Below are positions 13,271 to 42,203 of a stretch of DNA of 64,000 nucleotides, piece by piece; the stretch's first letter is position 1, and the number at the start of each line of letters is the position of its first letter. Made by a program: the position numbers and the translations under genes. Location of the stretch: NCBI RefSeq assembly GCF_003334405.1, contig NZ_QOWM01000011.1; one strand, given 5' to 3'. A model generated the notes under the pieces. The model was not told the origin of the DNA. It was given only the letters and a program-made list of their open reading frames with translations, and did no database searches. Source of the DNA: Escherichia coli (lineage in GTDB: Bacteria > Pseudomonadota > Gammaproteobacteria > Enterobacterales > Enterobacteriaceae).

Positions 13271-13310
13271 ATGATAAAGCCGGAGGAAACTTGCCTCCGG
13301 CATTACTATT
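13271..13310. terminator. Bidirectional hairpin between convergent dpiA and dcuC
   Basis: 8-bp GC stem (gccggagg/cctccggc) with U-rich flanks on both strands. Confidence 0.5.
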
Positions 13311-14695
13311 TACTTGCCTGTGACCGCTGCTGCCGTTCCTGGCACCATCAGCTCTGTAGCAACGATAACAATCACCAAACCAACAAGCACCGGTACCGAG
13401 GTGCGTTTTACGACTTCAAACGGCGAGATCTTCGCCATCCCGGCAACCGCAACGACTACGCCAGAAACGGGCGAAAGGGTACGGCCAAGGTTTGACGCCT
13501 GCAGCATCGGGATAGTCAAATACGCCGGGTTAATGCCGGAAGAGTGCGCCAGTTTCGGGATCATCTCAACAAACGCATAAAACGGCGCATTGCCTGAACC
13601 GGTCGTGACTGCCGCCAGCATTGTCAGAATCACCAATACCAGCATCAGGATGATACTCGCCGAACCAAACGAGGTAGCGATAGAAATCAGACTTTGAATA
13701 AAGCCGATGGTGCTAAGCCCCTGAGCGAATACCCCAGCGGCAACCAGCAGCATCACCACGTTAGCAAACGCATCTGCCATCCCGCGATAAGCCACTTCCA
13801 GACCAGAGAAAACTTTCTGGGTATTAAAGCTGCGGAGGAACTCCAGAATGGAGGCAATCAGCATACAAATCACCAGAATAGTGATGATGTGTAATTGCGG
13901 ACCCCATTTACCGTCAAAAATCAGTACACCGATGATCGGCGTGAACGGCAAAATGGCATAAAACGCAGGAGCAGTGGTGGTGATTTCACTGACATCTAAC
14001 ATTTCATGAGAGATGTGCTCTTTTTTATCCAGATAACGTTGCCAGAAGAAGTGGGCGATCGCCATGCCGATAATTGCAGCAATTGAGATAGGCAGCGTCG
14101 TTTTGAAGGCGAAGTCAATCAGCGACATTTCGGAAGCTTGCGCCGCCAGCACCACATCCCCTGAAGTCGGTGCGAGAATAATCGCCGCCGGGGAGGCACA
14201 AATGGCAGCAGCTGCGCCACGACTGATACCAACGTTTACCATCACCGGAAATAGGGTTGCCATCAGCAAAACACCCAGACCGGTTGCGGAAGAGACGGCC
14301 AGAGACATCAGACAGGCGACAAAATAGGCGGCAATCATCAGCAGGTAAGGGGAGTTAATATACTGCAATGGTTTTGACGCCAGCTTGACCACCATATCAT
14401 TCGCGCCGATATGGGTCATGTAAGCGGCAAATCCACACAGCATCATAATCATCATGCCGAGGTCGCCGCCGCGGCTCATTAGTAATATTTTAACGTATTC
14501 AACGATATCCGTGGCGCTGTAGCCTGTTGAAGCCTGGCTGGACGGTAACACTTTGTGCCCCATAATGGCACTGATAATCAGCAATAACAGGCCACCGACA
14601 AATAACACACCAGTGGCGGAATACCCTTTAATGATGTAGCGAGCTACACCCACAATAACCACAACCCCAATAAGGAGCTCAATGAATGTCAGCAT
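13310..14695 (-). CDS. dcuC: Anaerobic C4-dicarboxylate transporter
   Basis: 461-aa polytopic membrane ORF recognised as DcuC. Confidence 0.9.
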   Translation of the reverse strand: MLTFIELLIGVVVIVGVARYIIKGYSATGVLFVGGLLLLIISAIMGHKVLPSSQASTGYSATDIVEYVKILLMSRGGDLGMMIMMLCGFAAYMTHIGANDMVVKLASKPLQYINSPYLLMIAAYFVACLMSLAVSSATGLGVLLMATLFPVMVNVGISRGAAAAICASPAAIILAPTSGDVVLAAQASEMSLIDFAFKTTLPISIAAIIGMAIAHFFWQRYLDKKEHISHEMLDVSEITTTAPAFYAILPFTPIIGVLIFDGKWGPQLHIITILVICMLIASILEFLRSFNTQKVFSGLEVAYRGMADAFANVVMLLVAAGVFAQGLSTIGFIQSLISIATSFGSASIILMLVLVILTMLAAVTTGSGNAPFYAFVEMIPKLAHSSGINPAYLTIPMLQASNLGRTLSPVSGVVVAVAGMAKISPFEVVKRTSVPVLVGLVIVIVATELMVPGTAAAVTGK

Positions 14696-14784
14696 AATTT
14701 TTCCTGTCTCCAGGCCCCAAAGTAAATAATAAAAAATTCCTAAAGCTTAAGGAAAAAATATGCCCAATAAATTGGCGATGAATG

Positions 14785-14798
14785 CTGATTAAAATCAA
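14785..14798. promoter_or_regulatory. Putative FNR binding site upstream of dcuC
   Basis: cTGATtaaaATCAA matches the FNR consensus TTGAT-N4-ATCAA at 9 of 10 positions, about 90-105 nt upstream of the dcuC start codon. Confidence 0.4.
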
Positions 14799-15283
14799 TA
14801 AAAACTGCCATTAAGACATTGAAGTTGCTGTTTTTATACATAGATAACAAAACGCATATTTAGCGGTTGGCAATTATCACATAATAATGTGTGCAAATTG
14901 ATGGTGGATTGATGCAAATTTGTTAATTGCAATGGTGTTAGCTGCGGCTGTGCGCTCAAAAAATAATCTAATATGAGCATAGGTTGACGATATATATTAT
15001 ATACTTCGTTAAGATGATTGTTGTATCTCGTTAAAAAATAAAATAATTTTTCCTTGATTGCATTTTGTCATCAAAAAAGACTTGGTTTTTCTTTTTTGAC
15101 TATTCCCATCGCAGAAAACGACGCATCATCTTTAATCGATGCGCGGAAATATTTAACTTGAACAAGCGGAAATAAATAGAGCAGCTATTCAGATTATTCT
15201 TTATGTTGGGTCTATTAAGGTTATGTTAATTGTAGCTTTGCTATGCTAGTAGTAGATTTTTGATAAATGTTTTATGGTCACAA

Positions 15284-15844
15284 ATGAACGTGAGTAAATA
15301 TGTCGCTATCTTTTCCTTTGTTTTTATTCAGTTAATCAGCGTTGGTAAAGTTTTTGCTAACGCAGATGAGTGGATGACAACGTTTAGAGAAAATATTGCA
15401 CAAACCTGGCAACAGCCTGAACATTATGATTTATATATTCCTGCCATCACCTGGCATGCACGTTTCGCTTACGACAAAGAAAAAACCGATCGCTATAACG
15501 AGCGACCGTGGGGTGGCGGTTTTGGCCTGTCGCGTTGGGATGAAAAAGGAAACTGGCATGGCCTGTATGCCATGGCATTTAAGGACTCGTGGAACAAATG
15601 GGAACCGATTGCCGGATACGGATGGGAAAGTACCTGGCGACCGCTGGCGGATGAAAATTTTCATTTAGGTCTGGGATTCACCGCTGGCGTAACGGCACGC
15701 GATAACTGGAATTACATCCCTCTCCCGGTTCTACTGCCATTGGCCTCCGTGGGTTATGGCCCAGTGACTTTTCAGATGACCTACATTCCGGGTACCTACA
15801 ACAATGGCAATGTGTACTTTGCCTGGATGCGCTTTCAGTTTTGA
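15284..15844 (+). CDS. pagP: Lipid A palmitoyltransferase (outer-membrane beta-barrel)
   Basis: ORF 15260..15844; start at [10 protein letters not shown]... gives the 186-aa precursor with a signal peptide. Confidence 0.9.
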
Positions 15845-16018
15845 GACAAATGAAGTTTTAGTAACTTCTTTAAAATCAATAGCTAAAATAAGTAACATCA
15901 AAAATAACGCGACTTTTATCACTTTTTAGTAAAGTTACACTGGACAAAGCGTACCACAATTGGTGTACTGGTAACCGACACAGCATTTGTGTCTATTTTT
16001 CATGTAAAGGTAATTTTG

Positions 16019-16228
16019 ATGTCTAAGATTAAAGGTAACGTTAAGTGGTTTAATGAGTCCAAAGGATTCGGTTTCATTACTCCGGAAGACGGCAGCAAAG
16101 ACGTGTTCGTACACTTCTCTGCAATCCAGACTAATGGTTTTAAAACTCTTGCTGAAGGTCAGCGCGTAGAGTTCGAAATCACTAACGGTGCCAAAGGCCC
16201 TTCTGCTGCAAACGTAATCGCTCTGTAA
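16019..16228 (+). CDS. cspE: Cold-shock-domain protein E
   Basis: ORF 15989..16228; start at [20 protein letters not shown] (69 aa) with the RNP1 motif KGFGFI. Confidence 0.95.
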
Positions 16229-16244
16229 GATACGTCAGCAAGAA

Positions 16245-16277
16245 TTCAAAACCCGCTTAATCAGCGGGTTTTTTTTG
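16245..16277. terminator. Bidirectional rho-independent terminator between cspE and crcB
   Basis: aaaacccgcttaatcagcgggttttttt: 7-bp stem flanked by an A-run and a T-run. Confidence 0.8.
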
Positions 16278-16281
16278 GTCT

Positions 16282-16665
16282 TTAGTGTGCGGTTGAGGCC
16301 GAAAACAGCCAGAATGCCAGTGCGGTCATGGCAAAAGACCCCAGAAGGTTGACGAAAACGTTCAGTAATGCCCAGCCAAAGCGGCCCTCTTGTAACAAAA
16401 ACACCACTTCTGCCGAAAATGTTGAGAAGGTTGTTAGACCGCCACAAAATCCGGTGGTGATTAATACTTTCCACACTGGATCAATGTTCGTCATCCTGCT
16501 GAACCATGCGAATCCTATTCCTATGATGAATGCCCCAATCAGGTTTGCTGTCAGCGTCCCCAACGGAATCGCCTGATGCAGTGGGTTAAATCGCATACTT
16601 AACAGCCATCTCGCCACGCTTCCCGTACCACCGCCAATAAAAACTGCTAAAAGAAGTTGTAACAC
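16282..16665 (-). CDS. crcB: Fluoride ion channel (CrcB/Fluc)
   Basis: 127-aa small membrane ORF recognised as CrcB. Confidence 0.9.
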
Positions 16666-42120: not shown

Positions 42121-42203
42121 TGCATTTATATCTTGAAAGAAAAAGAGATAAACAGATTAAGACCACCCAGGTAACGCGTGGTGATCTTAATCAATGACGT
42201 GTG

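What the first reader, a model, noticed from the sequence alone, without database searches (positions are those of the whole stretch)
14785..14798. Near-consensus FNR box upstream of dcuC
cTGATtaaaATCAA lies about 90-105 nt upstream of the dcuC start codon, consistent with class II FNR activation of an anaerobic C4-dicarboxylate carrier.
Basis: partly seen in the sequence, partly recalled or inferred. Interest (0 to 1): 0.3.

Follow-up and report, generated by a model that had tools for sequence, protein, structure and literature searches.

The report
Known FNR site activating dcuC
This 14-base motif is the already published binding site through which the oxygen sensor FNR switches on the E. 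coli succinate/fumarate carrier gene dcuC without oxygen, so it is real but ordinary.

Summary
The window is E. coli chromosome. ctgattaaaatcaa sits at 14785-14798, 90-103 nt upstream of the ATG (14695) of a minus-strand gene that is dcuC by a curated NCBIfam model. On the dcuC strand it reads TTGATtttaATCAG, 9 of 10 FNR core positions.

Sequence alone is weak evidence. One-mismatch matches number 6 in the window against 3.35 expected. By PWM the site ranks third in 64 kb, and 2-7% of local shuffles score as well.

The site is nonetheless real and already published. Myers et al. 2013 list this exact 14-mer under an FNR ChIP-seq peak whose summit is about 10 bp from its centre. They class dcuC as directly FNR-activated. 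RegulonDB marked dcuC as FNR-regulated by 2006.

New here is a comparison across about 80 enterobacterial species. In 79 of 81 sequences the box is followed, after an invariant spacer, by a conserved GGCAnATT block. This places a weak -10 (CATATT, 14762-14757) at -12..-7 if the box centre is at -41.5, which is class II geometry. Spacer, flanks and 5'UTR length all vary.

No anaerobic start site was found. The only mapped 5' end (-38 from the ATG) comes from aerobic cultures and would put the box at -58.5.

Verdict: interpretation supported, already known, low interest.

The parts
14785..14798 (-). FNR box. It reads TTGATtttaATCAG on the dcuC strand, with its centre between 14792 and 14791. The promoter-distal half-site is perfect; the promoter-proximal half-site ends in G instead of A.
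   Evidence: The sequence was read directly. It is the same 14-mer as Myers 2013 Table S6, position 655281, marked as ChIP-seq positive. The MG1655 copy lies at NC_000913.3 656058, also 90 nt from the dcuC ATG. The half-sites are conserved in 79 of 81 enterobacterial sequences while the N4 spacer varies.
14757..14762 (-). Predicted -10 hexamer CATATT, occupying -12..-7 if the box centre is at -41.5. There is no recognisable -35 hexamer, because the FNR box occupies that position.
   Evidence: In 79 of 81 sequences GGCAnATT lies exactly 20 nt after the box. The hexamers are CACATT (62), CAGATT (8), CATATT (7), CAAATT (1) and TACATT (1). Per-column information is 1.7-2.0 bits at -14, -13, -12, -11, -9, -8 and -7, against about 0.1 bits in the flanks. 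Its function as a -10 element is inferred.
14757..14767 (-). Conserved block TTnGGCAnATT, at -17..-7 in the predicted numbering.
   Evidence: T at -17 is invariant and G at -14 is present in 78 of 79 sequences. The base at -15 is never T in 79 sequences (C 41, A 28, G 10).
14748..14750 (-). Predicted FNR-dependent transcription start. It corresponds to NC_000913.3 about 656,021-656,023 and gives a 5'UTR of about 53-55 nt.
   Evidence: This is inferred from the conserved box-to-hexamer spacing. I found no experimental start site from anaerobic cultures.
14733..14733 (-). Reported 5' end 38 nt upstream of the ATG, with an assigned -10 of TAAGCT (14749-14744).
   Evidence: It comes from Mendoza-Vargas 2009 Table S1: 454 sequencing, 4 reads. 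The authors state that the cultures were aerobic and that 5'-triphosphate ends were not mapped. The TAAGCT stretch is not conserved between species.
14702..14705 (-). Shine-Dalgarno-like AGGA, 6 nt before the dcuC ATG.
   Evidence: The sequence was read directly. Its function is inferred.
13310..14695 (-). dcuC coding sequence (461 aa), the regulated gene.
   Evidence: The ORF list gives the coordinates. It matches NCBIfam equivalog NF007937 at 889.9 bits against a cut-off of 513. RefSeq annotates the matching region as dcuC.

Best explanation
The motif is the operator of a class II FNR-dependent, sigma-70 promoter of dcuC.

Without oxygen, dimeric [4Fe-4S]-FNR binds TTGATtttaATCAG (14798-14785 on the - strand). 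The box is centred about 41.5 bp upstream of a start near 14748-14750 and sits where a -35 hexamer would otherwise be. From that position FNR recruits and activates RNA polymerase at a weak -10 element (CATATT, 14762-14757). The result is a transcript with a 5'UTR of about 55 nt that encodes the anaerobic C4-dicarboxylate (succinate efflux) carrier DcuC.

Shown by published data: FNR occupies this spot in vivo, and dcuC expression depends on FNR and on anaerobiosis.

Shown here: the box and a -10-like block are conserved at a fixed spacing across Enterobacteriaceae.

Inferred: the exact start site, and the protein contacts. Contacts of FNR activating regions with sigma-70 region 4 and the alpha subunit are established knowledge for class II FNR promoters and were not tested for dcuC.
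For: Myers 2013 (PMC3688515) supplies the binding and expression evidence:
- The exact 14-mer is in Table S6 (PatSer 12.38, ln p -10.96), at a ChIP-seq peak and with no overlapping Fis, H-NS or IHF enrichment.
- The peak summit is 655,298, which is window 14802. dcuC is in Category 1, 'directly activated'.
- dcuC is FNR-activated by RNA-seq (Table S8). Its value in Table S12, the WT aerobic versus anaerobic comparison, is 0.0498. I did not read the column header. I take the value as aerobic over anaerobic, because the sdh genes score about 50, so dcuC is about 20-fold higher without oxygen.
- The peak persists in the hns stpA mutant (Table S7).
- 19 of 23 FNR-activated promoters with a known start site have the box at -41.5 +/- 4, so class II is the expected arrangement.

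The comparative evidence comes from 80 loci in other species:
- The best PWM hit within the 300 nt upstream of dcuC was scored for 79 of these loci (one was skipped in that script). It is the homologous box in 76 of them.
- In 79 of 81 sequences the box is followed after exactly 20 nt by GGCAnATT.
- The half-sites and the -10 block carry 1.7-2.0 bits per column. The N4 spacer, the region from -31 to -25 and the upstream flank are close to random.
- The predicted 5'UTR length varies from 20 to 116 nt.
Against: No start site has been mapped under anaerobic conditions. Myers et al. state 'TSS not in peak region' for dcuC.

The one mapped 5' end lies 38 nt upstream of the ATG (window 14733). It would place the box at -58.5, which fits neither class II nor a properly phased class I position.

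The anaerobically increased sigma-70 ChIP-seq summit in this intergenic region is at 655,742, which is window 15246. That is about 455 bp from the box and next to pagP, so it does not support a proximal promoter.

A separate RpoD 'constitutive promoter' pointing towards dcuC (ATGACA-17-AATTAT, 15071-15043) was reported by genomic SELEX and also turned up in my scan.

The box is near the bottom of the score range of bound FNR sites. It is the only ChIP-positive site in the part of Table S6 that I read to have C/G at the outermost position.

dcuC was differentially expressed between wild type and the fnr mutant in RNA-seq only, not in either of the two microarray sets.
Confidence: 0.8

Rival explanations
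1. FNR binds this box but activates from a non-class-II position. Transcription starts at the mapped 5' end 38 nt upstream of the ATG, using the TAAGCT -10. The box is then centred near -55 to -58.5 and acts like a class I site through the alpha C-terminal domain.
For: The only experimentally reported dcuC 5' end is at -38, with 4 reads and an assigned -10 of cCTTAAGCTt.
Against: That experiment used aerobic cultures, in which FNR is inactive, and did not select 5'-triphosphate ends. A centre at -58.5 is about 3 bp out of helical phase with class I positions (-61.5, -71.5; established knowledge). The TAAGCT stretch is not conserved between species, whereas the CAnATT block 22 nt after the box is. 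The distance from the box to the ATG varies between species, but the distance from the box to CAnATT does not.
Confidence: 0.08
2. The bound FNR acts mainly on another promoter of the 564-nt divergent region. The candidates are pagP or the distal sigma-70 promoter at 15043-15071. In this reading the proximity of the box to the dcuC ATG is incidental.
For: The sigma-70 ChIP-seq summit that rises anaerobically (37 to 366) is at window 15246, next to pagP. The pagP (crcA) value in the aerobic versus anaerobic table (Table S12) is 0.29, which on the same reading as for dcuC is about 3.4-fold higher without oxygen. Genomic SELEX and my scan both find a distal promoter-like site pointing at dcuC.
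Against: The box lies about 460 bp from the pagP start codon and about 250 bp downstream of the distal promoter, so it is not in an activating position for either. It is conserved together with a -10 block oriented towards dcuC at a fixed 22-nt spacing in 79 of 81 sequences. dcuC is listed among the FNR-activated operons in Table S8.
Confidence: 0.04
3. The palindrome is a CRP site, or a site for another CRP/FNR-family protein, rather than an FNR site.
For: FNR and CRP sites share the TGA-N6-TCA core, and both proteins act from -41.5 (established knowledge).
Against: In the CRP register the two core pentamers read ATTGA and TCAGC, against TGTGA and TCACA. That is 6 of 10 matches, and both discriminating G:C pairs are missing (read). 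The distal half-site carries the FNR-type T (TTGA) in 78 of 79 species. FNR ChIP-seq is positive at this spot. From memory of Zientz et al. 1999, which I could not read here, dcuC is not glucose-repressed.
Confidence: 0.02
4. The box is a chance match in AT-rich intergenic DNA and has no function.
For: One-mismatch matches are not enriched in the window: 6 against 3.35 expected. 7% of shuffles of the intergenic region contain an equally good site. Many equally good or better sites in the genome are not bound by FNR.
Against: The site is occupied in vivo. Its half-sites are invariant across genera whose neighbouring bases have diverged to near randomness.
Confidence: 0.01

Closest known systems
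The dcuC FNR site of E. coli K-12 MG1655 (Myers et al. 2013, PLoS Genet, Table 1 and Table S6; dcuC regulation from Zientz et al. 1999, as cited there)
   Same: It is the same 14-mer (CTGATTAAAATCAA) at the same distance from the dcuC ATG: 90 nt in both the window and NC_000913.3. The 605 nt upstream of dcuC differ from MG1655 at a single base.
   Different: The one difference is window 14799, T here and G in MG1655. This base directly flanks the box at predicted -49, a position that also varies between species (A 55, C 14). The publication gives no promoter geometry for dcuC.
Class II FNR-activated promoters (box centred at -41.5; Myers 2013 counts 19 of 23 FNR-activated promoters with a known start site in this class)
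   Same: The box overlaps the -35 position, a weak -10 lies 22 nt downstream, there is no -35 hexamer, and expression is induced anaerobically and depends on FNR.
   Different: The start site has not been mapped for dcuC. The box is weaker than most bound sites, because its promoter-proximal half-site ends in G. That G, or occasionally T, is conserved, and the consensus A never occurs in 81 sequences.
dcuB-fumB promoter, the other FNR-activated Dcu carrier
   Same: It is also an anaerobic C4-dicarboxylate carrier gene with an FNR ChIP-seq peak and FNR-dependent expression.
   Different: Myers et al. place the dcuB box at -132.5, not at a class II position. dcuB also needs DcuSR and is repressed through NarXL. 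From memory of Zientz et al. 1999, dcuC is independent of DcuR.

Membership tests
FNR binding site | Inverted repeat matching TTGAT-N4-ATCAA. | tested here: met
   TTGATtttaATCAG matches 9 of 10 core positions. It scores 11.4 bits on a PWM of 62 bound sites, just below the lowest training score of 11.8. Myers et al. give ln p -10.96 against their threshold of -10.75.
FNR binding site | FNR-type T, not CRP-type G, at the outermost half-site position (TTGA rather than GTGA). | tested here: met
   The distal half-site is TTGAT here and in 78 of 79 species. The proximal half-site carries C/G at that position, which is neither the FNR type nor the CRP type.
FNR binding site | Occupied by FNR in vivo under anaerobiosis. 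| tested here: met
   This was met through the literature, not by computation. The ChIP-seq summit at 655,298 is about 10 bp from the box centre, and the site is flagged '+' in Table S6.
FNR binding site | The downstream gene shows FNR-dependent expression. | tested here: met
   This was met through the literature. dcuC is 'Activated' in the RNA-seq comparison of wild type with the fnr mutant, but not in the two microarray sets. It is in Category 1 and was flagged in RegulonDB by 2006.
Class II FNR-activated promoter | Box centred at about -41.5 relative to a mapped transcription start. | tested here: inconclusive
   I found no anaerobic start site in the sources I searched: Kim 2012, Ettwiller 2016 and Federowicz 2014. 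The aerobic 5' end at -38 from the ATG would give -58.5. Myers et al. report 'TSS not in peak region'.
Class II FNR-activated promoter | A -10 element about 22 nt downstream of the box, with the box replacing the -35 hexamer. | tested here: met
   CATATT at 14762-14757 begins 22 nt after the box. The same spacing occurs in 79 of 81 sequences with no insertions or deletions, and A-11 and T-7 are nearly invariant.
Class II FNR-activated promoter | Sigma-70 RNA polymerase occupancy at the promoter rises anaerobically. | tested here: inconclusive
   Table S2 of Myers et al. lists one dcuC/pagP sigma-70 peak that rises from 37 to 366 anaerobically. Its summit, window 15246, is about 455 bp from the box.
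Class I activator site | Box centred at -61.5, -71.5 and so on, on the same helical face. | tested here: not met
   The box would be at -58.5 relative to the aerobic 5' end and at -41.5 relative to the conserved -10.
CRP binding site | TGTGA-N6-TCACA core. | tested here: not met
   The core reads ATTGA-N6-TCAGC, 6 of 10 positions, with both discriminating G:C pairs absent (sequence).
Sigma-54 promoter (considered because of the conserved GGCAC) | TGGCAC-N5-TTGCW, with GG and GC elements one helical turn apart. | tested here: not met
   The base before GGCA is never T in 79 sequences, and no GC is conserved 10-11 nt downstream. The sigma-54 regulon paper that matched the literature search concerns dcuD, not dcuC.

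The most novel reading that the evidence does not exclude
The dcuC promoter may be held deliberately below consensus by selection. Across 81 enterobacterial sequences the promoter-proximal end of the FNR box is never the consensus A (G in 74 of 79 aligned sequences, T in 5). The base at -15 is never T, although a T next to the invariant G at -14 would create an extended -10 'TG'. This could mean either of two things. Selection may keep the promoter strictly dependent on fully active FNR. Alternatively, a second, unidentified factor may read the conserved TCAGCAAG or TTnGGCAnATT sequences.
Probability: 0.2. Interest if true: 0.3.

Novelty: already known. Interest (0 to 1): 0.08.

Why it matters
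It matters little beyond annotation. dcuC has been a textbook member of the FNR regulon since 1999, and this exact site was catalogued with ChIP-seq support in 2013.

The small added value is the comparative footprint. It gives a specific, testable prediction for the unmapped FNR-dependent start site, about 55 nt upstream of the ATG, with a class II arrangement. It also shows that the sub-consensus form of the box is conserved.

Knowing the promoter geometry could help engineering of succinate export, where dcuC expression is manipulated.

Tried and rejected
Searches for a mapped anaerobic start site found nothing useful.
- Kim 2012 supplements hold no dcuC start site and no coordinate in 6552xx-6557xx.
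- The Ettwiller 2016 Cappable-seq supplements, as held, gave no hit for the expected coordinates.
- Federowicz 2014 supplements do not mention dcuC.
- Zientz 1996 and 1999 and Thomason 2015 are not held. What I say about Zientz 1999 beyond its citation is therefore from memory.
- No paper in the library combines dcuC, FNR and class II beyond those already read.

The generic sigma-70 scan did not find the proximal promoter. This is expected for an activator-dependent promoter that lacks a -35. It found only the distal ATGACA-17-AATTAT.

An Rfam scan of 14500-16400 found nothing in the dcuC-pagP spacer; the only hits are the cspA-type element and weak hits around cspE.

I rejected a sigma-54 reading of the conserved GGCAC. 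I also rejected a CRP reading of the palindrome, from the sequence.

One script timed out and another crashed part-way; both were rerun.

I could not locate the ArcA site that Park 2013 predicted in this spacer. I recovered only the expression change: dcuC is 4.1-fold lower and pagP 2.8-fold lower in the arcA mutant.

Full report
**Observation.** The 14-mer ctgattaaaatcaa is at window 14785-14798. On the minus strand it reads TTGATtttaATCAG. The minus-strand ORF 13310-14695 (461 aa) matches the curated NCBIfam equivalog for the anaerobic C4-dicarboxylate transporter DcuC at 889.9 bits, against a cut-off of 513. Its neighbours are dpiB, dpiA, pagP and cspE. The region is E. coli chromosome: it is 100% identical to strain 300709 and is found in 5420 of 5426 complete genomes. 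Gene order matches MG1655 b0619-b0623.

**Is it more than chance?** On sequence alone, barely.
- One-mismatch matches to TTGATNNNNATCAA number 6 in the window, against 3.35 expected.
- I built a symmetrised PWM from the 62 other ChIP-bound sites in Myers et al. Table S6. The box scores 11.4 bits and ranks third in 64 kb, where about 2.8 such hits are expected by chance.
- 7% of shuffles of the AT-rich (32% GC) dcuC-pagP spacer contain a site at least as good. So do 2% of shuffles of the 150 nt next to the ATG.
- It is the only candidate in the spacer; the next best scores 2.5 bits.

**Published evidence.** Myers et al. 2013 (PMC3688515) settle the binding question.
- Table S6 lists CTGATTAAAATCAA at U00096.2 position 655281, labelled dcuC/pagP. 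The site lies at an FNR ChIP-seq peak and does not overlap Fis, H-NS or IHF enrichment.
- That coordinate fixes the conversion: window coordinate = U00096.2 coordinate minus 640,496. In NC_000913.3 the same 14-mer is at 656058, again 90 nt from the ATG.
- Table 1 gives a ChIP-seq summit at 655,298, which is window 14802 and about 10 bp from the box centre.
- Table 1 lists one predicted site in the peak and places dcuC in Category 1, directly activated by FNR. It cites Zientz et al. 1999 as earlier evidence of regulation and records no earlier evidence of binding.
- Table S8 lists dcuC as FNR-activated in RNA-seq, but not in the two microarray sets.
- Table S12 is the WT aerobic versus anaerobic comparison, and its value for dcuC is 0.0498. 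I did not read the column header. I take the value as aerobic over anaerobic, because the sdh genes score about 50, which makes dcuC about 20-fold higher without oxygen.

Other sources agree. [quoted passage not shown] Park et al. 2013 add that dcuC falls 4.1-fold in an arcA mutant. They predict an ArcA site in the spacer but saw no ArcA ChIP signal there.

**Promoter geometry: published data.** Myers et al. give 'TSS not in peak region' for dcuC. The only mapped 5' end I found is in Mendoza-Vargas et al. 2009. It lies 38 nt upstream of the ATG (window 14733), rests on four 454 reads, and is assigned the -10 TAAGCT. That would centre the box at -58.5. The authors state that only aerobic cultures were screened and that 5'-triphosphate ends were not selected. 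This 5' end therefore says nothing about the FNR-dependent start. Other start-site resources gave nothing.

**Promoter geometry: comparative test run here.**
- I fetched dcuC loci from 80 other species: Escherichia, Citrobacter, Salmonella arizonae, Enterobacter, Lelliottia, Leclercia, Klebsiella, Raoultella, Buttiauxella, Pluralibacter, Mangrovibacter and others.
- An unanchored PWM scan of the 300 nt upstream of each ATG was run on 79 of these loci; one was skipped in that script. It returned the homologous box as the top hit in 76 of them.
- Aligned on the box, the half-sites TTGAT and TCAG are invariant or nearly so. The N4 spacer, positions -31 to -25 and the upstream flank carry about 0-0.3 bits per column.
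- In 79 of 81 sequences the block GGCAnATT follows exactly 20 nt after the box, with no insertions or deletions. The hexamer is CACATT in 62, CAGATT in 8 and CATATT in 7.
- If that hexamer is the -10 at -12..-7, the box centre falls at exactly -41.5.
- The predicted 5'UTR length varies from 20 to 116 nt, so it is the box-to-hexamer distance that is conserved, not the box-to-ATG distance.
- The TAAGCT assigned to the aerobic 5' end is not conserved.
- In the window the predicted -10 is CATATT at 14762-14757, and the predicted start is about 14748-14750.
- Two caveats apply. Anchoring by a pattern inflates the conservation seen inside the box columns, though not in the -10 block. The species are also phylogenetically related, although their flanking bases are close to random.

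**Mechanism.** The best-supported mechanism is class II activation. Anaerobic FNR dimer binds at -41.5 in place of a -35 hexamer and activates sigma-70 RNA polymerase at a weak -10. The protein contacts are taken from established knowledge of class II FNR promoters, not from any test on dcuC. Myers et al. find 19 of 23 activated promoters with known start sites at -41.5 +/- 4, so this is also the prior expectation.

**Points that do not fit neatly.**
- The anaerobically increased sigma-70 ChIP-seq summit is at window 15246, next to pagP and about 455 bp from the box.
- A distal promoter-like site ATGACA-17-AATTAT (15071-15043, pointing at dcuC) is seen both in my scan and in RpoD genomic SELEX.

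**Rivals.** A class-I-like action from -58.5 is disfavoured by helical phase, by the aerobic origin of that 5' end, and by its unconserved -10. Action on pagP or on the distal promoter is disfavoured by distance and by the orientation of the conserved -10. A CRP site is excluded by the sequence, which matches 6 of 10 core positions and lacks both discriminating G:C pairs. A sigma-54 reading of GGCAC is excluded because the preceding T is never present and no -12 GC is conserved. Chance is excluded by the ChIP-seq signal and the conservation.

**Novelty and verdict.** The site, its FNR occupancy and the regulation of dcuC are already published, so the finding is a correct rediscovery. The modest additions are the conserved class II spacing, with a predicted start site, and the observation that the box and the -10 region are conserved in sub-consensus form (never A at the proximal end, never T at -15). 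Interest is low.

Noticed in passing
window 42181-42194: GTGATCTTAATCAA is the best FNR-PWM hit in the whole window at 16.4 bits, far better than the dcuC box. Myers 2013 Table S6 lists it at 682677 near hscC as not bound by FNR and covered by H-NS, so it is a 'silent' site.
   Followed up: partly
window 14785 and 14765 (predicted -35 and -15), and loci L002-L081: The promoter-proximal last base of the FNR box is G in 74 and T in 5 of 79 aligned sequences, never the consensus A. Position -15 is never T, although G-14 is invariant and a T there would create an extended -10 'TG'. This suggests selection for a sub-optimal, strictly FNR-dependent promoter, or an overlapping unknown site.
   Followed up: partly
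window 15043-15071 (- strand): A distal sigma-70 promoter-like site ATGACA-17-AATTAT points towards dcuC, about 350 nt upstream of the ATG. The same pair of hexamers is reported by Shimada 2014 RpoD genomic SELEX as a 'constitutive promoter' in an H-NS-bound spacer. Its relation to dcuC expression is unknown.
   Followed up: partly
window 15121-15144 (- strand): A terminator-like hairpin (8 pairs, 4 of them G-C) followed by CGTTTTCTGC lies in the dcuC-pagP spacer on the dcuC strand. No annotated gene lies upstream of it on that strand, and there is no Rfam match.
   Followed up: no
window 15246 (U00096.2 655,742): The sigma-70 ChIP-seq summit that rises about 10-fold anaerobically in Myers 2013 Table S2 lies next to the pagP start, not at the FNR box. 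pagP itself reads as about 3.4-fold higher anaerobically in Table S12 (value 0.29) and is 2.8-fold lower in an arcA mutant in Park 2013.
   Followed up: partly
window 14799: This is the only difference from MG1655 in the 605 nt upstream of dcuC: T here, G in MG1655. The base directly flanks the FNR box at predicted -49, a position that also varies between species.
   Followed up: yes
L046 (Citrobacter amalonaticus S646), upstream of dcuC: The conserved FNR box and -10 block lie about 334 nt from the ATG instead of about 100 nt. This implies an insertion of roughly 240 nt between the promoter and the gene.
   Followed up: no
L030 (Atlantibacter sp. RC6) and L065 (Citrobacter freundii M-21): These two dcuC loci lack the GGCAnATT block. 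They carry TTGATATTAATCAG or TTGATATTTATCAG, followed 21 nt later by CACAAT. This may be a second, differently derived FNR-type promoter or a paralogous copy.
   Followed up: no
window 15834-16276 (+ strand): There is an Rfam cspA thermoregulator hit (RF01766, 124 bits against a gathering score of 78) covering the cspE leader and coding region.
   Followed up: no
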